A stretch of 64,000 nt of DNA from a virus, in the IMG/VR virus record IMGVR_UViG_3300025104_000001, positions 1 to 64,000 of that record. One strand, given 5' to 3'. Of this stretch, positions 4,543 through 34,920 are shown one piece after another. The number at the start of each line of letters is the position of its first letter. Within the stretch, counting starts at the first letter, position 1. The translations under genes and the position numbers were made by a program. Under the pieces are notes generated by a model. That model was given only the letters and a program-made list of their open reading frames with translations. It was not told the DNA's origin and made no database searches.

Positions 4543-5433
4543 ATGGGATTCGAGAAGTATCTACAAGAGGCTGAGATTGCAGCATCAAAACGCAAAGGCA
4601 TAATGCATCTAGAAAAAGCCAAGCCATCGGAGTTCTTAGAGCTCGCCCGTGACATTATGAAATCAGGCAACGGGCAAATGAAAGACGTGAAAATCAGCTT
4701 GAAGGTTGACGGTGCTGGTATTCGTTTCGGCAAAGACTCTCAAGGTCGATTCTTCTTTGAAACATCACGCTCTGGCCCTATTCAACAGAAGAAGGCATTT
4801 ACAGCGCACGCTTCACAAAAGGATGGCGTAGACCTAACCAGAGCCAACCATTATGATGATATGTATGACCACATCGAAGCTTCGAATCTCTGGAAAGATT
4901 TGCCTCCAGATACGAAGGTTGTGGCTGAAATATTGTATAATCCGATGGCAGAGATTCTACAGGATAAGATCAAGTTTGTTTCTGTCGCCTATGACAAGAG
5001 CAAGTTGGGTTCTCTAATGACCATCATCCCGCTTGATGTTGTTGTCTCATCCACGGGCAAGACGCATGATGACAAAGACAAGATCATCGAAGGTCTCTTG
5101 AAGAAATCGAATTCTGAAATCAAGGTCGAAAGTGCGAACCTACAAGGAACAACGCTTAATGTCGAAACAATCCTCAAGCCAATCTTTGCACTTGGTTCAG
5201 ACATTGATAGCGTTCTGGCTTCTCGTAAGGCTAGCGACAAAGCGAAGAAAGAACTCTATCAGATCGTGATTCAAAATGTCAAGGATCAATTGGCTAAATT
5301 CATCTTGAATCACCCTGAGATTGTAGGAAAGGATAAATTCGGCCCAGAGATTGAAGGTTTGGTTCTTGACTTGGGTAATAGACAATTCAAGGTGACGACT
5401 TCAGCATTTAAGGCATCGAAGCAAAAGGTATAA
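4543..5433 (+). CDS. ATP-dependent ligase / covalent nucleotidyltransferase-like protein (DUF6267-like)
   Basis: Motif I KVDG, motif IV EGLVL, motif V FKV; N-terminus MGFEKYLQE. Confidence 0.6.
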   Translation: MGFEKYLQEAEIAASKRKGIMHLEKAKPSEFLELARDIMKSGNGQMKDVKISLKVDGAGIRFGKDSQGRFFFETSRSGPIQQKKAFTAHASQKDGVDLTRANHYDDMYDHIEASNLWKDLPPDTKVVAEILYNPMAEILQDKIKFVSVAYDKSKLGSLMTIIPLDVVVSSTGKTHDDKDKIIEGLLKKSNSEIKVESANLQGTTLNVETILKPIFALGSDIDSVLASRKASDKAKKELYQIVIQNVKDQLAKFILNHPEIVGKDKFGPEIEGLVLDLGNRQFKVTTSAFKASKQKV

Positions 5434-26554: not shown

Positions 26555-27481
26555 CTACTCCTCACAAGACCCATTCTTCAACCCAGTGGTTGACTCTTGT
26601 TCTCCATTATAAACGTGACCCGGGATTAGCTGACGATGTTGAATCCAACCACGGAAGTTACCTGACCACAGTTGCATGTCTGCGGTCATATGAGTGACTC
26701 CCAACTCCTTCCAATGCTCTGGTTCATATGGGGAACAAGTCTTATCCATAGGCTTAGCTTGATGTTCAAAAGGAGAAGCATGAACAGGTTTTGTCTCCAC
26801 TAGACGACGATAGATGTCTTGTGCTTTTTCAAGACTTTTGTCTAGCTTACGATACGAAACCTGAGCGCAACACGATGAGGAGATAGCCAACGCTTCTTCT
26901 AGGCTATGATCTTGTGAATCAGTCCAATGACCTTGCATGTAATACGGGACATGCCAATCATTGTATCCGAGTTCAAATGGGTCTGAATTAGCTACAGCTT
27001 CTAGCATGGCTTCTGCAAGAGCCTTGATTTCAGGTTGTGCGTCTTTGTGAGCACGGAGATAGAAGAAGTTACCAATTTCGGTTGTCGTCATCACAACCTT
27101 GATGATTTGGAACGGTTCTAGGATACGATTGATGATTTGCTTATGTGCGCCTTCTTCATTCATTAAAGCGGCAATTCTGCAGGCCTCACCCCTTGCTTCA
27201 TCCCAAAGGGACTTTACTCGAGCAAGATTGGGTTCTTGAAGTTCCTCATTGGCTTGCATGCCTGGTTGGTTCTTGCCCCAATGAACCGGCTTTGCTGGAT
27301 TTGTTTGCACCAGCTCAATCATAGACTTGACGGGAATGGCTCGGCTTGATGCTGCGTTTCGTGAGAACATTCGGTGGGTAAGGAGCTCCGCGTGAATGAA
27401 ACGGGGATACTCCAACTCAAAGGTTGTAAGCCGAACACCTGCGGGTGAAATTGAATCTGCGATGATGTTTGCTTTAATCAT
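26555..27481 (-). CDS. thyX: Flavin-dependent thymidylate synthase
   Basis: ELLTHR-x-FSRNAASSRAIP, R-x-H-x-x-AQPEI, HASPFEH; AAGGAG RBS before the ATG at 27481. Confidence 0.9.
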   Translation of the reverse strand: MIKANIIADSISPAGVRLTTFELEYPRFIHAELLTHRMFSRNAASSRAIPVKSMIELVQTNPAKPVHWGKNQPGMQANEELQEPNLARVKSLWDEARGEACRIAALMNEEGAHKQIINRILEPFQIIKVVMTTTEIGNFFYLRAHKDAQPEIKALAEAMLEAVANSDPFELGYNDWHVPYYMQGHWTDSQDHSLEEALAISSSCCAQVSYRKLDKSLEKAQDIYRRLVETKPVHASPFEHQAKPMDKTCSPYEPEHWKELGVTHMTADMQLWSGNFRGWIQHRQLIPGHVYNGEQESTTGLKNGSCEE

Positions 27482-27500
27482 AAAACTCCTTGGTAACAAA

Positions 27501-27716: not shown

Positions 27717-29156
27717 TTATACCGTCAGCCCATCAATGTCATAACGAGGAGAGCTGATTGTCTTCAGCATCACGCTTTCTGGCGTGATTTCCTCTGCCTT
27801 AAGAACGCTTTGCATGATTGCAGGGCTGAACCCAGTAATCATAGTTGTTCCGTTCTCATCAGACTTAACTTGGATGTTTTGACTACGAGCGTTCACGTTC
27901 CAGAAGATGATGTTAGGACGAACATAACCCGCCCTTTCAAACTTCTCATTGATAGCTTGGTAGTTTGTTACCATCTTCTTCCTACCAGAGCAATCTTCCG
28001 AACTCGTAGCGGCGTTGAATTCCATATCTGAGATGATGATGATGTACTCAGGCATGTCGCTTTGAGGTACATTGTTCTCTACAGCAGAGTTCAACAGCAA
28101 ATCAAATGCTGCTTGAATATCAGTAGAACCTCCCCAAGGCAATTTACGAACATAATCCACTTTTTCCTTGATGGTCTTCTGATCGATGTTTGCCCACTTC
28201 GGAGCAGTCTCAAACGTCATCGCCAAGTTCTTGAAGTGACCTTCTTGACGTTCAGCCAAGTAGATACCCAAGGAGATTGCAACGTCCATGCATGACACTT
28301 TACCAAAACCACCTGCAGGACAGTTCATAGAACCAGAAACGTCAATCATAGGAAGCATCTTGGATGCACCATCCAGATAGTCTGGCAGTTCCTTCCATTG
28401 TGCGTCTGCAACTTCAGCATCGCCGAATTGTGCAGTTCGAATAACATCATAAGGGTACAACGCCGAGGCTTTGGCTTTCACCTTGCCGTTTGCAAGAGCT
28501 TCCTTGTATGCAGAGAACCTCTCTTTAGCGTTACGGGCAAAAGCGTTTGTATAGCGAGCCATTGCAACAGAAGGCACTTGGGAGAAATTGATTTCATCCC
28601 ATTGTTTAGCGCACATCTTAGTCTCAACAGTGTTGGAAGTTTCAACCAACAGCTTACGATATGCTTTAGGGCTCAACTTCATCAAACCACGGATGATGGC
28701 AGCTTCTTTACCTTTGCGAGGCAACCACTTTGCAATCAACCCTGCATTGACAGATTTGGTTTCCATAGCAACCTTAAGTTGTTCAGCCAAGTGGAAACGG
28801 ATTTGGGTTGGGATTGCATCATGACACAACAGAGGAACCAAATCGTCAAAACGACCTAGCTCGGGGATCTTACCGCTCAACATGATTGAAGCGACTGCGC
28901 GCTTATCGTTCTTAGCCAACCAATCCATGATTGTACGGAATACCAAACGTTCGCCTGGGCCGCCACGAGCGTCACGCGCCCATAGCAAGATACGTAGCGC
29001 AGTGACAGGGTCCTCGGCATATGCCAGAATGAACTTCTCTAGTGCGTCGTTAGGATTGTTTCGTGCAGAACCGATAACAGCGAACAAGTCAACGTTACGG
29101 TTTAGGGAAGTTGCCAGAGTCTTTGCTCCATTGGCAGTGAAAGCCACGTTTGACAT
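27717..29156 (-). CDS. DUF2828 / TROVE(Ro60)-like protein with vWA domain
   Basis: T-x-NGA, RD-x-RGG-x-GER, AKWLPR, VPS-x-AM, DVSGSM MIDAS, ISDMEF, FWNV, GFSP. Confidence 0.85.
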   Translation of the reverse strand: MSNVAFTANGAKTLATSLNRNVDLFAVIGSARNNPNDALEKFILAYAEDPVTALRILLWARDARGGPGERLVFRTIMDWLAKNDKRAVASIMLSGKIPELGRFDDLVPLLCHDAIPTQIRFHLAEQLKVAMETKSVNAGLIAKWLPRKGKEAAIIRGLMKLSPKAYRKLLVETSNTVETKMCAKQWDEINFSQVPSVAMARYTNAFARNAKERFSAYKEALANGKVKAKASALYPYDVIRTAQFGDAEVADAQWKELPDYLDGASKMLPMIDVSGSMNCPAGGFGKVSCMDVAISLGIYLAERQEGHFKNLAMTFETAPKWANIDQKTIKEKVDYVRKLPWGGSTDIQAAFDLLLNSAVENNVPQSDMPEYIIIISDMEFNAATSSEDCSGRKKMVTNYQAINEKFERAGYVRPNIIFWNVNARSQNIQVKSDENGTTMITGFSPAIMQSVLKAEEITPESVMLKTISSPRYDIDGLTV

Positions 29157-29167
29157 AATAATCTCCG

Positions 29168-29212
29168 CAGGTTGTTTATGATTTCAAGAGATGAATTGCT
29201 GAAAGCAACCTT
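29168..29212 (-). ncRNA. Putative structured ncRNA motif copy 1 (AAGGnnnnTTWCAGCA...nnnnCCTG)
   Basis: AGGTTG/CAACCT closing stem plus TTTCAGCAA; immediately upstream of the DUF2828 gene. Confidence 0.55.
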
Positions 29213-29217
29213 TTATA

Positions 29218-29338
29218 CAGGAACGCTGTGCACTAAGCACTCATGAGGGCTCACGCTCTAACCCAAAAGCATACAAAGGCATGCTAGATCTAAGTTTTAA
29301 TATGTCGGGTTCTTGATCTGCTTGCTGAAACGTTCCTT
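29218..29338 (-). ncRNA. Putative structured ncRNA motif copy 2
   Basis: AGGAACG/CGTTCCT closing stem plus TTTCAGCAA; internal hairpins. Confidence 0.55.
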
Positions 29339-32534: not shown

Positions 32535-32597
32535 CTTGTATAACTTGTATAACTTGAATAACTTGAATAACTTGTATAACTTGAATAACTTGTACTA
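32535..32597. repeat. Tandem 9-bp repeat CTTG(T/A)ATAA, six copies plus a partial copy
   Basis: Read directly from the sequence. Confidence 0.95.
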
Positions 32598-32599
32598 TT

Positions 32600-33096
32600 C
32601 ACACATTGATTACTAGTTCTTTTTCAAGTTTCATCTCATGGGGAAAACTGCTCCAAGTGCAGGAGCACTATATAATTTAACATTCACCGATTTACCGTAC
32701 TCTACCCAATCCACTGATAGATGGGTAATTCCTTCTTTTACCATGTTGAACCTAAAGTATAACCTTTATATTTTATCCACCTAGATGGGGTAACCCCATC
32801 TAGTCCTCGTTCTTTTGCTAATTTACTCTGTCGTATTTTAAATTCTTCTGTGTAGGGATGCCCTTTTATTGATTTACCCTTATTTGGGTTAATTGGAATA
32901 TCAATACCTAATTCTCTTGCTTTAATGTATTGATTACTTTTTTAGCACCGGGTGGGTGCTTGTTTACACTGTTATGGAAAGATTCCTTTTCAAAATTTGA
33001 AATTCTTCTATTCGGATTTTGTTTACAATATCTCTCATGATTTATTTTTGAATTATTATTCTTACATTCTTTGTTGCAAAAATTACATATTAGCAT
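32600..33096 (-). pseudogene. Degenerate homing-endonuclease-like gene (N-terminal zinc finger)
   Basis: MLICNFCNKECKN...HERYC-x-x-NPN; very AT-rich; broken frame; adjacent to the tRNA cluster. Confidence 0.55.
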
Positions 33097-33121
33097 TTTA
33101 TTATTCTTATAATTACATTTT

Positions 33122-33158
33122 GTAAATTCGTTGCCGTAGACCACTTGGCTAATCCAGC
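33122..33158 (-). pseudogene. tRNA 5' half (no T-arm or 3' acceptor strand)
   Basis: GCTGGATTAGCCAAGTGGTCTACGGCAACG acceptor strand plus D-arm. Confidence 0.6.
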
Positions 33159-33170
33159 ACAATATGCCAT

Positions 33171-33202
33171 AGGCGGCTGCTCTACCAACTGAGTTAAAAG
33201 AA
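33171..33202 (-). pseudogene. tRNA 5' half
   Basis: TTCTTTTAACTCAGTTGGTAGAGCAGCCGCCT D-arm, truncated at the anticodon arm. Confidence 0.6.
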
Positions 33203-33209
33203 TGAATTT

Positions 33210-33284
33210 TGGTGGAGCTGCGGGGAATCGAACCCCGAACTGCGCCTTGCAAGGGCGCTGTGTTCCCAATTATACCACAACCCC
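33210..33284 (-). tRNA. tRNA-Ala(TGC)
   Basis: Full cloverleaf, G3:U70, GCGCC-CTTGCAA-GGCGC, TTCGATT, ACCA. Confidence 0.92.
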
Positions 33285-33320
33285 AAAAATCTACATTGTT
33301 TTGTATATATTCAAAACGTT

Positions 33321-33396
33321 TGGGATGACCCACGGGATTTGAACCCATACTGCCAAGGTCACAACATAGAGTTCTAATCATTACACTAAAGTCACC
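33321..33396 (-). tRNA. tRNA-His(GTG), partly degenerate
   Basis: G-1 and CCCA end, GTG anticodon, TTCAAAT; mismatched anticodon stem, D-loop GA instead of GG. Confidence 0.7.
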
Positions 33397-33407
33397 ACTA
33401 AGCGTTT

Positions 33408-33484
33408 TGGAACGGTTAGTCAGATTCGAACTGACACTTCGGATTTGGAAGACCCGCGTGCTAGCCGTTAAACACTATAACCGC
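33408..33484 (-). tRNA. tRNA-Gly(TCC)
   Basis: GCGGTTA/TAACCGT acceptor, CGGGT-CTTCCAA-ATCCG, U73, CCA. Confidence 0.92.
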
Positions 33485-33495
33485 ATTGAATATAA

Positions 33496-33579
33496 CAGGA
33501 TGGCTCCTACTTTTTGATTAAAGAGAGAAATCGAAACTCTCAACCAGTATATCTTAAAATAACTGCTGTAACCATCCTT
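33496..33579 (-). ncRNA. Putative structured ncRNA motif copy 3 with a T-arm-like hairpin
   Basis: AGGATGG/CCATCCT stem plus TTACAGCAG; internal GAGAG-TTTCGATTT-CTCTC. Confidence 0.55.
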
Positions 33580-33588
33580 AAATTTTTG

Positions 33589-33659
33589 TCTCCGAAGAAG
33601 GAATCGAACCTTCGCCTCATGGCCCCAAACCACGCACGCTACCATTACACCACTCGGAG
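33589..33659 (-). tRNA. tRNA-Pro(TGG)
   Basis: CTCCGAG/TTCGGAG acceptor, CGTGG-TTTGGGG-CCATG, TTCGATT; CAA instead of CCA. Confidence 0.85.
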
Positions 33660-33750
33660 TGATTTCCATTTTTCTACGGTGACCGCTACCAACTCGCTAC
33701 TGAGTTGTATCACAGTTAGTTGGATCACTGCATATGATACTTTTAATCAG

Positions 33751-33843
33751 TGGTGCGGTAGGTTGGATTCGAACCAACAGTGTTTACCACGAGGGACCGG
33801 ATTTACAGTCCGGGGATGCACACGCCATAGCATCAACTACCGC
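33751..33843 (-). tRNA. tRNA-Tyr(GTA)
   Basis: CCGGA-CTGTAAA-TCCGG, long variable arm, TTCGAAT, ACCA; atypical 5-bp D-stem. Confidence 0.85.
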
Positions 33844-33854
33844 ATCTTTGTCGT

Positions 33855-33922
33855 CACCATTTCAAAACACAATATCGGTCCGGGATTCTAACCCATTTCT
33901 AATTTTGTGTTTTGAAATGGTG
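33855..33922. repeat. Perfect 18-bp inverted repeat enclosing a T-arm-like remnant
   Basis: CACCATTTCAAAACACAA (33855-33872) / TTGTGTTTTGAAATGGTG (33905-33922). Confidence 0.9.
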
Positions 33923-34002
33923 CCCCTAGCAGGGTTCGAACCTGCACTCCTTTCGGAAGCGGATTTTGAGTCCGCCGAGTCTACCAGTTCCTCCATAGGG
34001 GC
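33918..34002 (-). tRNA. tRNA-Leu(CAA)
   Basis: GCCCCTA/TAGGGGC, GCGGA-CTCAAAA-TCCGC, variable stem TCCGAAAGGA, ACCA. Confidence 0.95.
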
Positions 34003-34503: not shown

Positions 34504-34920
34504 CTAAATCTTTTCTACCTCGACACCTAGCTGCTGAAGAAACTTGATACCATCATCAGAACGATACTGATTTCTGTACCATACCTTCCTGAACCCTGAC
34601 GTCTTGATGGCTTTGGCACATTCGACGCAAGGCGCATGGGTCACAAACAAATCCGCACCGAGAGCACTCTGACCGTCCCGTGCCATTTTGTAGATTGCGT
34701 TTTGTTCTGCATGAATGACCTCAGGCCTTGTTACAGTAGAACCGTCTTCATTCTGTGTCTCACAGACGTTATCAAACCCCGGCGGTGTGCCGTTGTAACC
34801 CACGCTAAGAATACGATGGTCTTTCACAGCAACAGCACCGACCTTGAGCCTTGTAGCGGTTGAAGTCTTGGCAACAACCTCTGCAATCTCAATGTAAAGG
34901 TCTACGAATTTCCGTTTCAT
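34504..34920 (-). CDS. cd: dCMP deaminase
   Basis: VGA, GYNG, HAEQNAI, PCVECAK zinc motifs. Confidence 0.93.
   Translation of the reverse strand: MKRKFVDLYIEIAEVVAKTSTATRLKVGAVAVKDHRILSVGYNGTPPGFDNVCETQNEDGSTVTRPEVIHAEQNAIYKMARDGQSALGADLFVTHAPCVECAKAIKTSGFRKVWYRNQYRSDDGIKFLQQLGVEVEKI

What the first reader, a model, noticed from the sequence alone, without database searches (positions are those of the whole stretch)
33496..33579. Third motif copy is a tRNA mimic embedded between tRNA-Pro and tRNA-Gly
Seen: inside the conserved closing stem are a D-loop-like ACTGGTT and a T-arm-like hairpin GAGAG-TTTCGATTT-CTCTC, with no anticodon arm or CCA. Established: YrlA-type Y RNAs carry a tRNA-like D/T module. 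Inference: it is co-transcribed and processed with the tRNAs, linking the Ro-like protein to the tRNA pool.
Basis: partly seen in the sequence, partly recalled or inferred. Interest (0 to 1): 0.7.

Follow-up and report, generated by a model that had tools for sequence, protein, structure and literature searches.

The report
Phage Ro60-partner small RNA among tRNAs
The 84-base spacer between two phage tRNA genes belongs to a widespread, apparently undescribed family of small structured RNAs that travels with a Ro60-shaped phage protein and with tRNA clusters, and it closely resembles the 'Class I' RNAs so far thought unique to social amoebae.

Summary
Between tRNA-Pro and tRNA-Gly lies 5'-AAG-GAUGG(U)-UACAGCAG...CCAUC-CUGU-3'. 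Inside are an ACUGGUU and a hairpin GAGAG/UUUCGAUUU/CUCUC.

A covariance model built only from distant phage contigs ranks this element first in the 64-kb window (21.7 bits, E 0.012, all 9 pairs formed).

The family is a terminal stem with compensatory changes followed directly by (U)UACAGCAA. It piles up on the gene's strand next to DUF2828/DUF7788 genes and between tRNA genes. It occurs in T4-like, Felix-O1-like, Campylobacter, Listeria and mycobacterial phages.

The window's DUF2828 protein folds as Ro60: the top 11 PDB matches are all Ro60.

The element is not YrlA. It has no Rfam hit, no GNCGAA motif and a different arm order. T-arm-like plus GGUU modules do recur in part of the family, so 'tRNA mimic' is partly supported.

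The only recurrent non-tRNA Rfam match to family members is Dictyostelium Class I RNA, always below threshold. The anatomy is the same, including the AAG start and CUG(U) end.

Protein binding, processing with the tRNAs, and conservation of this particular copy were not shown.

The scan's first stage had already noted the two sister copies in this window.

The parts
33494..33581 (-). The finding: stem-UUACAGCA small RNA element (copy 3), 5'-UU AAG GAUGGU UACAGCAG ... GCCAUC CUGU-3'
   Evidence: Sequence. Fold with a 9-bp terminal stem. Top hit in the window of model R2, which was built without any window sequence: 21.7 bits, E 0.012, all 9 pairs formed.
33572..33578 (-). 5' arm of the closing stem, AGGAUGG (7 bp, the length of a tRNA acceptor stem)
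   Evidence: The stem covaries across the family.
33564..33571 (-). Invariant family motif UUACAGCA, directly after the 5' arm
   Evidence: CAGCA is invariant in alignments A1 and A2. The motif is enriched upstream of DUF2828 genes.
33542..33548 (-). ACUGGUU ('D-loop-like'; GGUU recurs upstream of T-arm-like hairpins in other members)
   Evidence: Co-occurrence table of T-arm-like hairpin and GGUU: 17/14/16/99.
33523..33541 (-). T-arm-like hairpin GAGAG/UUUCGAUUU/CUCUC
   Evidence: Found in 1.2-2.7% of shuffles. 85% identical over 13 nt to the T arm of the neighbouring tRNA-Pro (repeat D19).
33497..33503 (-). 3' arm of the closing stem, CCAUCCU, followed by GU (so the RNA ends CCUGU)
33588..33659 (-). 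tRNA-Pro (UGG), 8 nt upstream of the element in the direction of transcription
   Evidence: ARAGORN and Rfam.
33408..33484 (-). tRNA-Gly (UCC), about 10 nt downstream of the element
33210..34002 (-). tRNA cluster Leu-Tyr-Pro-[element]-Gly-His-Ala, with no predicted internal promoter or terminator on this strand
   Evidence: A candidate extended -10 (TGATATAAT) at 34083-34075 was read directly from the sequence.
29219..29337 (-). Sister copy 1: AAG-GAACG-UUUCAGCAAG...CGUUC-CUGU, in the leader of the DUF2828 gene
   Evidence: Conserved in L081 and L098. L082 has a compensatory AGGAACA/UGUUCCU stem. A TTGACA-17-TATAAT promoter lies upstream in L081 and L098.
29168..29211 (-). Sister copy 2: AAG-GUUG-CUUUCAGCAAU...CAAC-CUG, ending 1 nt before the GGAG ribosome-binding site
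   Evidence: RF01414, 16.2 bits; second-best R2 hit. Conserved in L081, L082 and L098.
27717..29156 (-). DUF2828/DUF7788 protein with the Ro60 fold (HEAT-repeat ring plus vWA domain)
   Evidence: Pfam. AF2 model with pLDDT 89.5. The Foldseek top 11 are all Ro60, E 9e-10 to 2e-5, TM up to 0.63.

Best explanation
The 84-nt spacer is a gene for a small non-coding RNA of a phage family that I call here stem-ACAGCAA RNAs. A 7-9 bp helix joins the 5' and 3' ends. It is followed immediately by single-stranded (U)UACAGCA(A), then by a variable interior that in some members carries tRNA-like arms.

Most likely mechanism (inferred): the RNA is transcribed as part of the polycistronic tRNA precursor. It is freed by the same host enzymes that mature the flanking tRNAs: RNase P at the 5' end of tRNA-Gly, and 3' end trimming after tRNA-Pro. 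The terminal stem plus ACAGCA module is then bound by the phage's Ro60-fold DUF2828 protein, as a Y RNA is bound by Ro60. The variable interior, here GGUU plus a T-arm-like hairpin, would act as the tether or specificity module that brings the particle to tRNA-handling enzymes or to RNA substrates.

Shown: the element is real; it is a member of the family; the family is linked to DUF2828 genes and tRNA clusters; the protein has the Ro60 fold.

Inferred: expression, processing, protein binding and function.
For: - Model R2 was built from 31 elements of distant IMG/VR phages only. Its top hit in the whole window and in the 90.8-kb genome is this element.
- The closing stem covaries: 80.1% of cells paired against 65.0% in shuffles, 53 double-change cells against 20.8, and 32-46% when the partner is slid.
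- Simple stem+CAGCA elements number 351 within 1 kb upstream of DUF2828 genes on the gene's strand, against about 3 per 250-nt bin elsewhere.
- R2 found 150 hits in 80 independent metagenome loci. All are on the gene's strand and nearly all lie within 600 nt of the gene.
- The family is present next to DUF2828 genes in Campylobacter phage CPX (43.4 bits), mycobacteriophage Archie (34.4 bits), Listeria phage LMTA-94 (28.5 bits), Cronobacter phage S13 and Felixounavirus LinBro.
- Members abut tRNA genes in L063, L091, L103, L109, L160 and LinBro.
- In L091 a YrlA-like RNA (41.5 bits, E 8.6e-8) lies directly upstream of the DUF2828 gene, next to a family member.
- The protein has the Ro60 fold.
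- No promoter or terminator is predicted inside the tRNA cluster.
Against: - There are no expression data and no binding data.
- This particular copy could not be traced in a close relative. L098, whose protein is 78% identical, has only a tRNA-Arg in its 7 kb upstream.
- R2's score for the element is modest, and the E-values of these quickly calibrated models are rough.
- Copies 1 and 2 lie in the mRNA leader, so the motif could act in cis.
- Aeromonas phage Aeh1 and Vibrio phage nt-1 have the protein but no convincing R2 hit.
- The IMG/VR and metagenome loci are dominated by one gut-phage group, so hit counts overstate the number of independent cases.
Confidence: 0.55

Rival explanations
1. 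It is a cis-acting protein-binding or processing site, not a stable trans-acting RNA. On this reading the stem-ACAGCA module is an operator through which the DUF2828 protein controls its own mRNA (copies 1 and 2 in the leader). Copy 3 would then couple the maturation or decay of the tRNA precursor to the same protein.
For: - Copies 1 and 2 lie between a sigma-70-like promoter and the ribosome-binding site of the gene, and copy 2 ends 1 nt before GGAG.
- Most family members sit directly upstream of the gene.
Against: - In mycobacteriophage Archie and Cronobacter phage S13 the elements lie downstream of the gene.
- In LinBro, L109 and L160 they lie kilobases away among tRNAs, spaced like tRNA genes.
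- Two to five tandem copies with different interiors fit separate RNAs better than a single operator.
Confidence: 0.2
2. It is a decayed tRNA gene or plain spacer. The 7-bp stem would be a former acceptor stem, the hairpin a former T arm, and the match to the motif chance.
For: - The hairpin is 85% identical over 13 nt to the T arm of tRNA-Pro.
- The stem has 7 bp.
- The hairpin alone arises in 1-3% of shuffles.
- Conservation of this copy is untested.
Against: - It is the top hit of an independent family model, with all nine pairs formed.
- It shares AAGG..UU(A/U)CAGCA..CCUG with the two copies at the Ro60-like gene.
- Cronobacter phage S13 has a very similar element: an AGGAUGC/GCAUCCU stem, UACAGCAAU and an internal T arm.
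- The family as a whole may well descend from tRNAs, and that does not make this copy a dead gene.
Confidence: 0.1
3. It is a tRNA-arm decoy that works without the Ro60-like protein. On this reading it soaks up host anticodon nucleases, tRNA-modifying enzymes or CCA-adding enzyme.
For: - By the strict screen (5-bp stem, 7-nt YUNNNRN loop), 22 of 70 distinct members have anticodon-arm-like hairpins, against 1.3 in shuffles. A looser 4-bp screen of 146 members shows the loops are often CUGUUAA or CUGCUAA.
- T-arm-like hairpins occur in 8 of 70 distinct members, against 0 in shuffles.
Against: - The invariant part is the stem plus ACAGCAA, not the tRNA-like arms.
- The tight genetic linkage to DUF2828 genes across phage families argues for a shared function.
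- This copy has no anticodon-like loop.
Confidence: 0.1
4. It is a YrlA-type Y RNA.
For: - It lies on the same strand and 4.4 kb from a Ro60-fold gene.
- It has a T-arm-like hairpin.
Against: - There is no RF02553 hit on it at E <= 10.
- It has no GNCGAAN0-1G motif and no T/acceptor-like/D arm order (PMC4201824).
- A YrlA-like RNA, where one exists (L091), is a separate gene beside a family member.
Confidence: 0.03

Closest known systems
Dictyostelid Class I RNAs (Rfam RF01414; Kjellin et al. 2021, PMC7919456)
   Same: - A short terminal stem joins the 5' and 3' ends. Its structure is conserved but its sequence is not, with compensatory changes.
- A conserved single-stranded motif (C)CUUACAGCAA lies directly after the 5' arm.
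- The loci start with AAG and end with CUG(U).
- The interior is variable.
- RF01414 is the only recurrent non-tRNA Rfam match to family members: 12 sub-threshold hits, each on an element that lies on the DUF2828 gene's strand.
   Different: - Every hit is below the gathering score of 41.5 bits. The best is 28.9 bits, and the finding itself gets no hit.
- The phage stems are 7-9 bp rather than 6.
- The phage RNAs are often longer than 42-65 nt (this one is 84 nt) and can carry tRNA-like arms.
- The hosts are phages rather than amoebae, and there is no DUSE promoter.
- The known direct binder in Dictyostelium is the RRM protein Rnp1A/CIBP. I could not test whether Dictyostelia have a DUF2828 protein.
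Ro60 / Y RNA particles, including bacterial and phage YrlA (RF02553; Chen et al. 2014, PMC4201824; Thermus phage phiLo Ro60 with Yrl1/2, PMC12135203)
   Same: - Small RNAs are encoded in one or more copies beside a Ro60-fold gene, on its strand.
- A terminal helix formed by the two ends is combined with a variable or tRNA-like module.
- The RNAs can be processed from a common precursor.
   Different: - The protein is DUF2828/DUF7788, not Pfam TROVE.
- The RNA lacks the GNCGAA/GGUCCGA Ro-binding motif and the YrlA arm order. Its conserved motif is UUACAGCAA.
- Binding has not been shown.
Phage T4 stable RNAs rnaC and rnaD (species 1 and 2) in the tRNA cluster
   Same: - They are non-tRNA structured RNAs encoded head to tail with tRNA genes in a T4-like phage.
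- rnaC ends in a T arm.
- Their function is unknown.
   Different: - R2 does not hit them.
- T4 has no DUF2828 gene.
- They are 119-139 nt long.
- The only resemblance is a CACAGCAG following a hairpin in rnaD.
tRNA
   Same: - A 7-bp terminal stem.
- A T-loop-like UUCGAUU.
- A position in a tRNA operon at tRNA-like spacing.
   Different: - It has no cloverleaf, no anticodon arm and no CCA.
- The T-arm-like hairpin is not stacked on the terminal stem.
- ARAGORN and RF00005 do not call it.

Membership tests
Phage stem-ACAGCAA RNAs linked to DUF2828 (defined here by model R2) | A terminal helix of 7-9 bp joining the two ends, with compensatory variation | tested here: met
   All 9 model pairs are formed in the element. 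Family covariation is shown.
Phage stem-ACAGCAA RNAs linked to DUF2828 (defined here by model R2) | (U)UACAGCA(A) directly 3' of the 5' arm | tested here: met
   UUACAGCAG at 33571-33563. The last base is G where the consensus has A.
Phage stem-ACAGCAA RNAs linked to DUF2828 (defined here by model R2) | Encoded on the strand of a DUF2828 gene, next to it or inside its tRNA cluster | tested here: met
   Same strand, 4.4 kb upstream of the gene, between tRNA-Pro and tRNA-Gly. Parallels in L109, L160 and LinBro.
Phage stem-ACAGCAA RNAs linked to DUF2828 (defined here by model R2) | Significant score with a model that did not see the window | tested here: met
   21.7 bits, E 0.012, rank 1 of 128 kb searched. 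The next hit scores 13.7 bits and is copy 2. E-values are rough.
YrlA (RF02553) | GNCGAAN0-1G motif near the 5' end | tested here: not met
   The motif is absent from the 84 nt. The criterion comes from PMC4201824.
YrlA (RF02553) | T arm, acceptor-like stem-loop and D arm in that order inside the terminal helix | tested here: not met
   There is only a GGUU followed by a T-arm-like hairpin, and no acceptor-like stem-loop.
YrlA (RF02553) | Rfam score at or above 69 bits | tested here: not met
   No hit on the element at E <= 10. The weak 19.8-bit hit at 33151-33261 is the tRNA-Ala T arm plus a downstream D-arm-like piece.
Dictyostelium Class I RNA (RF01414) | A short terminal stem with the 11-nt motif CCUUACAGCAA adjacent to its 5' arm | tested here: met
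   The stem is followed by UUACAGCAG, which matches 8 of the 9 core bases of UUACAGCAA. Consensus taken and PMC7919456.
Dictyostelium Class I RNA (RF01414) | Conserved AAG at the start and CUGU at the end of the locus | tested here: met
   AAG at 33579-33577 and CUGU at 33498-33495. The true RNA ends are unknown.
Dictyostelium Class I RNA (RF01414) | Length of 42-65 nt | tested here: not met
   The element is 84 nt. Copy 2 is about 45 nt.
Dictyostelium Class I RNA (RF01414) | Rfam score at or above 41.5 bits | tested here: not met
   No hit on the element. Copy 2 scores 16.2 bits. Relatives score 22.7-28.9 bits.
Dictyostelium Class I RNA (RF01414) | DUSE promoter about 60 nt upstream; dictyostelid genome | tested here: not met
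   This is a phage genome, and the element lies inside a tRNA operon.
tRNA (RF00005) | Cloverleaf with an anticodon arm | tested here: not met
   Not called by ARAGORN or by Rfam, even at E <= 10.
Ro60 (for the partner protein) | HEAT-repeat ring plus a vWA domain with a MIDAS motif | tested here: met
   Full-length Foldseek matches to human, Xenopus, D. radiodurans and phage Ro60. DxSGSM is invariant in the alignment.
Ro60 (for the partner protein) | Sequence membership of Pfam TROVE | tested here: not met
   Pfam gives DUF2828 and DUF7788, plus only a sub-threshold vWA_Ro60 hit. The PDB profile hits to Ro60 are not significant.
Ro60 (for the partner protein) | Binds the neighbouring small RNAs | not testable with these tools
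   Needs RIP, CLIP or EMSA.

The most novel reading that the evidence does not exclude
The phage stem-ACAGCAA RNAs and the Class I RNAs of dictyostelid amoebae are one RNA class. Its ancestral partner is a Ro60-fold DUF2828 protein, a family shared by phages and many eukaryotes. On this reading Class I RNAs are a second, unrecognised type of 'Y RNA', and phages carry them together with tRNAs. The unexplained DdR-21 pull-down protein DDB_G0281243 (bioRxiv 10.1101/2020.04.05.026054) is one candidate to check.
Probability: 0.25. Interest if true: 0.9.

Novelty: new variant of a known kind. Interest (0 to 1): 0.78.

Why it matters
- DUF2828 proteins occur in at least 711 sequenced phages, including Felix O1-like, Listeria, Staphylococcus, Campylobacter and mycobacterial phages, and in plants, fungi and dinoflagellates. 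They have no known function. Showing that they have the Ro60 fold and travel with a conserved small RNA gives a concrete, testable model of a Ro/Y-type particle.
- This would enlarge the Ro60/Y RNA world beyond TROVE-annotated proteins and YrlA.
- It offers an explanation for part of the 'extra' structured RNAs and over-long tRNA genes in phage tRNA clusters.
- The near-identical anatomy of Dictyostelium Class I RNAs challenges the published view that they are unique to social amoebae. It points to a possible protein partner and function for them.

Tried and rejected
- **Close relatives in phage records.** A blastn search of the tRNA region found only tRNA matches.
- **Exact-pattern scans for copy 3.** The viral-contig scan found nothing.
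- **The look-up of encoding contigs.** The closest relatives of the protein (87-95% identical, from Logan assemblies) could therefore not be fetched, and conservation of copy 3 stayed untested.
- **Single-sequence AlphaFold.** It failed with pLDDT 40. The run with an alignment worked.
- **Sequence searches of PDB.** No significant hit.
- **YrlA membership.** Rejected.
- **tRNA or pseudo-tRNA calls.** Rejected.
- **T4 rnaC and rnaD as family members.** Rejected, because R2 does not hit them.
- **A DUF2828 protein in Dictyostelium.** The atlas search, two further homologue searches and literature searches showed plants, fungi and dinoflagellates but nothing either way for Dictyostelia.
- **Avesson 2011 and Aspegren 2004.** These papers are not held.

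Full report
**What is there**

The window is part of a T4-like phage contig: 90.8 kb, an IMG/VR record that CheckV rates at about 49% complete.

Six tRNA genes lie head to tail on the minus strand:

| tRNA | Coordinates (minus strand) |
|---|---|
| Leu | 34002-33918 |
| Tyr | 33843-33751 |
| Pro | 33659-33588 |
| Gly | 33484-33408 |
| His | 33395-33321 |
| Ala | 33284-33210 |

The finding is the spacer between Pro and Gly. Read on the minus strand it is 5'-AAG GAUGGU UACAGCAG ... ACUGGUU GAGAG-UUUCGAUUU-CUCUC ... GCCAUC CUGU-3'.

- RNAfold closes the molecule with a 9-bp terminal helix and forms the GAGAG/CUCUC hairpin. The energy is -20.9 kcal/mol with z = -2.2.
- The exact AGGATGG..CCATCCT pair occurs once in the window, where 0.01 is expected.
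- The hairpin is only T-arm-like. Its loop has 9 nt, which becomes UUCGAUU if a U-U pair closes it.
- A comparable hairpin arises in 1.2-2.7% of shuffles of the interior.
- The element has no anticodon arm and no CCA, and neither ARAGORN nor the Rfam tRNA model calls it.

**Sister copies and the protein**

Earlier notes of this scan pointed to two related elements upstream of the gene at 29156-27717. I confirmed them:

- Copy 1: AAG-GAACG-UUUCAGCAAG...CGUUC-CUGU at 29337-29219.
- Copy 2: AAG-GUUG-CUUUCAGCAAU...CAAC-CUG at 29211-29168, ending just before the GGAG ribosome-binding site.

The gene product matches Pfam DUF2828 and DUF7788, with only a sub-threshold vWA_Ro60 hit.

- An AlphaFold model built with 53 homologues reaches pLDDT 89.5.
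- Its 11 best Foldseek matches in the PDB are all Ro60 proteins over the full length: human, Xenopus, D. radiodurans Rsr and Thermus phage phiLo. E-values run from 9e-10 to 2e-5 and TM-scores reach 0.63. Isolated vWA domains follow.
- 'Ro-like' is therefore right at the level of fold, although the sequence lies outside Pfam TROVE.

**A conserved RNA family**

The protein has homologues in 711 phage records, none closer than 46% identity. I fetched 80 IMG/VR loci.

- TT(A/T)CAGCA occurs 257 times where 58 are expected. The occurrences stack at fixed places just upstream of the gene, on its strand.
- A simple search for 'stem, then [AT]CAGCA, then the complementary arm' finds 351 elements in the 1 kb upstream of the gene, against about 3 per 250-nt bin elsewhere.
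- The stems differ while pairing is kept, for example UGGGACGCU/AGCGUCCUG, GUGACGCU/AGCGUCAU, ACAACGCA/UGCGUUGU and UGGAUGCGU/GCGCAUCCA.
- On a 35-sequence alignment the nine stem pairs are 80.1% paired, against 65.0% in shuffles and 32-46% when the partner is slid. There are 53 double-change cells against 20.8 in shuffles.

These loci are dominated by one group of gut phages, so the counts overstate independence. The pattern nevertheless recurs in clearly different lineages, as shown under 'Breadth'.

**Is the finding a member?**

I built covariance model R2 from 31 IMG/VR elements only, with no window sequence.

- With filters off, its best hit in the 64-kb window and in the whole 90.8-kb genome is 33493-33581 on the minus strand: 21.7 bits, E 0.012, all nine pairs formed.
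- The runner-up, at 13.7 bits, is copy 2.
- In 80 independent metagenome loci R2 finds 150 hits at E <= 0.1. Every one is on the gene's strand and nearly all lie within 600 nt upstream of the gene.

Closer relatives keep copies 1 and 2:

- L081 (75% identical protein) and L098 (78%) have both copies behind a TTGACA-17-TATAAT promoter.
- L082 (56%) carries a compensatory AGGAACA/UGUUCCU stem.
- L098 has only a tRNA-Arg in its 7 kb upstream, so copy 3 itself could not be followed.

**Breadth**

| Phage | R2 or Rfam hits | Position |
|---|---|---|
| Campylobacter phage CPX | 43.4 and 20.8 bits | Between tRNA-Tyr and the gene |
| Mycobacteriophage Archie | 34.4, 22.7 and 19.7 bits | Just downstream of its 'Ro-like RNA binding protein' |
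| Listeria phage LMTA-94 | Three tandem copies | Upstream of the gene; an RtcB ligase gene lies 1.3 kb downstream |
| Felixounavirus LinBro | RF01414 at 26.7 bits | Two elements (AAG-ACCAA-UUACAGCAA..UUGGU-CUG and AAG-ACCGU-AUUCAGCAA..ACGGU-CUG) between tRNA-Glu and tRNA-Asn |
| Cronobacter phage S13 (T4-like) | R2 at 18.2 bits | AAG-AGGAUGC-C-UACAGCAAUUA..GCAUCCU-GUUU with an internal T arm, after two over-long tRNA genes |

The S13 stem differs from the window's by one compensated pair.

Aeromonas phage Aeh1 and Vibrio phage nt-1 gave no convincing hit.

**Link with tRNAs**

In other loci, members sit 1-15 nt from tRNA genes on the same strand:

- L063: tRNA-Met, element, tRNA-Asn, element.
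- L091: tRNA-Asp, then an element.
- L103: tRNA-Pro, then an element.
- L109: an element, then tRNA-Tyr, 4 kb from the gene.
- L160: two cases of tRNA-Leu followed by an element.

In the window no promoter-like or terminator-like site is predicted on the minus strand inside the cluster. A TGATATAAT lies about 70 nt upstream of tRNA-Leu. Co-transcription and release by tRNA-processing enzymes is therefore a reasonable inference, but it was not shown.

**How tRNA-like is the element?**

- Of 70 distinct metagenome members, 8 have a strict T-arm hairpin (at least 4 bp closing a UUCRANY loop) against 0.0 in shuffles. Their stems compensate: ACGG/CCGU, AAGG/CCUU, GCGG/CCGC, GUGG/CCAC.
- 22 of the 70 have an anticodon-arm-like hairpin of 5 bp with a 7-nt YUNNNRN loop, against 1.3 in shuffles.
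- Members with a T-arm-like hairpin tend also to have an upstream GGUU. The table is 17/14/16/99, an odds ratio of about 7.5. The sequences are not independent.

It is not YrlA:

- The Rfam model gives no hit on it.
- The GNCGAA motif and the arm order that define YrlA are absent.
- A good YrlA-like RNA does exist in L091, directly upstream of the DUF2828 gene and beside a family member: 41.5 bits, E 8.6e-8, below the gathering score of 69. This supports the Ro60/Y RNA analogy for this protein family.

**The unexpected resemblance**

In permissive Rfam scans the only non-tRNA family that repeatedly matches members is RF01414, the Dictyostelium Class I RNA.

| Locus or copy | Score (bits) |
|---|---|
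| L009 (two hits) | 23.7, 23.6 |
| Window copy 2 | 16.2 |
| L017, L091, L104, L137, L139 (seven hits) | 22.7-28.9 |
| L091, re-searched in 601 nt | 28.9 (E 0.0024) |
| LinBro | 26.7 |
| LMTA-94 | 23.1 |

- Every hit lies on an element on the DUF2828 gene's strand, either just upstream of the gene or, in LinBro, in its tRNA cluster.
- The E-values are corrected for 4227 families, so for this one family they are about 4000 times smaller.
- All hits are below the gathering score of 41.5 bits, and the finding itself is not hit.

Kjellin et al. (PMC7919456) define Class I RNAs by:

- a short terminal stem that keeps pairing through compensatory changes;
- an 11-nt motif next to its 5' arm (Rfam consensus GaUcuC-CUUACAGCAAU...GagAuC-UG);
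- a conserved AAG start and CUGU end;
- a variable interior.

They report these RNAs as unique to Dictyostelia. The window's three copies and the LinBro, S13 and Listeria elements show the same AAG..stem..UUACAGCAA..stem..CUG(U) layout.

DUF2828 proteins also occur in eukaryotes: plants, fungi and dinoflagellates. I could not establish whether Dictyostelia have one. I also could not establish what DDB_G0281243 is. [quoted passage not shown] Shared ancestry or a shared partner is a hypothesis, not a result.

**Verdict**

- The element is very likely a real member of a widespread phage small-RNA family linked to a Ro60-fold protein and to tRNA clusters. That family is apparently undescribed: it is absent from Rfam 15 at curated thresholds, and no paper turned up in searches for DUF2828, for Class I RNA with phage, or for TROVE/Y RNA in phages.
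- The YrlA label is wrong.
- 'tRNA mimic' is partly right.
- Binding, processing and function are inferred.

Noticed in passing
L009:4895-5016, 5072-5189, 5195-5321; L063:7433-7552; L006:5653-5772; L281:4875-4995 and 5005-5117 (Cronobacter phage S13, annotated tRNA-Ser and tRNA-OTHER); L282:7157-7278 (Aeh1 'tRNA-Val', 122 nt): Over-long tRNA-like genes of 113-127 nt lie next to DUF2828 genes. They have normal acceptor, D and T arms. The anticodon region is expanded by 50-60 nt and holds a 7-bp hairpin followed by (A)ACAGCAA or AUUCAGCA. So the family motif is also built into tRNA-like molecules (seen in the L009, L063, L006 and S13 genes; the Aeh1 'tRNA-Val' is listed on its annotated 122-nt length only, its sequence was not read). 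Some keep a small anticodon-like loop downstream.
   Followed up: partly
L091:4132-4246: A YrlA-like RNA lies directly upstream of a DUF2828 gene: RF02553 at 41.5 bits, E 8.6e-8, below the gathering score of 69. It has T, acceptor-like and D arms in YrlA order. A Class-I-like element and a tRNA-Asp lie just before it.
   Followed up: partly
window 33844-33917 (-): The spacer between tRNA-Leu and tRNA-Tyr folds into a long perfect-looking stem, with 21-nt arms that are 95% complementary. The stem encloses GGGUUAGAAUCCC, another T-arm-like hairpin (z = -3.2; 0 of 200 shuffles fold as well). It has no ACAGCA motif.
   Followed up: partly
window 33660-33750 (-) and 33120-33209 (-): Two further spacers contain tRNA-like pieces. 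The Tyr-Pro spacer has a GUAUCAU..GUGAUAC-type hairpin like those in the over-long tRNAs. The stretch after tRNA-Ala has a D-arm-like CUCAGUUGGUAGAG. Together with the tRNA-Ala T arm, that piece gives a weak YrlA hit (19.8 bits), probably the false positive expected from two adjacent tRNA arms.
   Followed up: partly
Family members, e.g. L108:7791-7857, L153:5601-5667, L109:3808-3873, L091:3824-3887: Many members carry a 4-6 bp hairpin with a 7-nt loop, such as CUGUUAA, CUGCUAA, CUUUUAA or CUGUCAA. These look like anticodon loops for GUU, GCU, UUU and GUC. In L091 the loop has GUC and the neighbouring gene is tRNA-Asp(GUC).
   Followed up: partly
L284:5054-5172 (-) (phage T4 rnaD): T4 species 2 RNA has a hairpin followed by CACAGCAGAAAC near its 3' end, a layout like the insert of the over-long tRNAs. 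T4 has no DUF2828 gene, and the family model does not hit rnaC or rnaD.
   Followed up: partly
window 32535-32597 (+): Seven tandem copies of a 9-nt unit, CTTG(T/A)ATAA, in a non-coding stretch downstream of the tRNA cluster.
   Followed up: no
P0136, P0146 (eukaryote-like DUF2828 homologues): Some longer DUF2828/DUF7788 proteins carry KH domains (PF07650, PF00013). A fused KH domain is a classical RNA-binding module, which fits an RNA-related role for the family.
   Followed up: no
window 26555-27499 (-), 34504-34920 (-): The neighbours of the locus are nucleotide-metabolism genes: a ThyX-like thymidylate synthase and a dCMP deaminase.
   Followed up: no
window 32908-33381 (-) and 33514-33891 (+): Two mechanical ORFs of 157 and 125 aa overlap the tRNA genes and the element. 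Pfam gives no hit for the 157-aa ORF; the 125-aa ORF was not scanned. Both are almost certainly not genes.
   Followed up: partly
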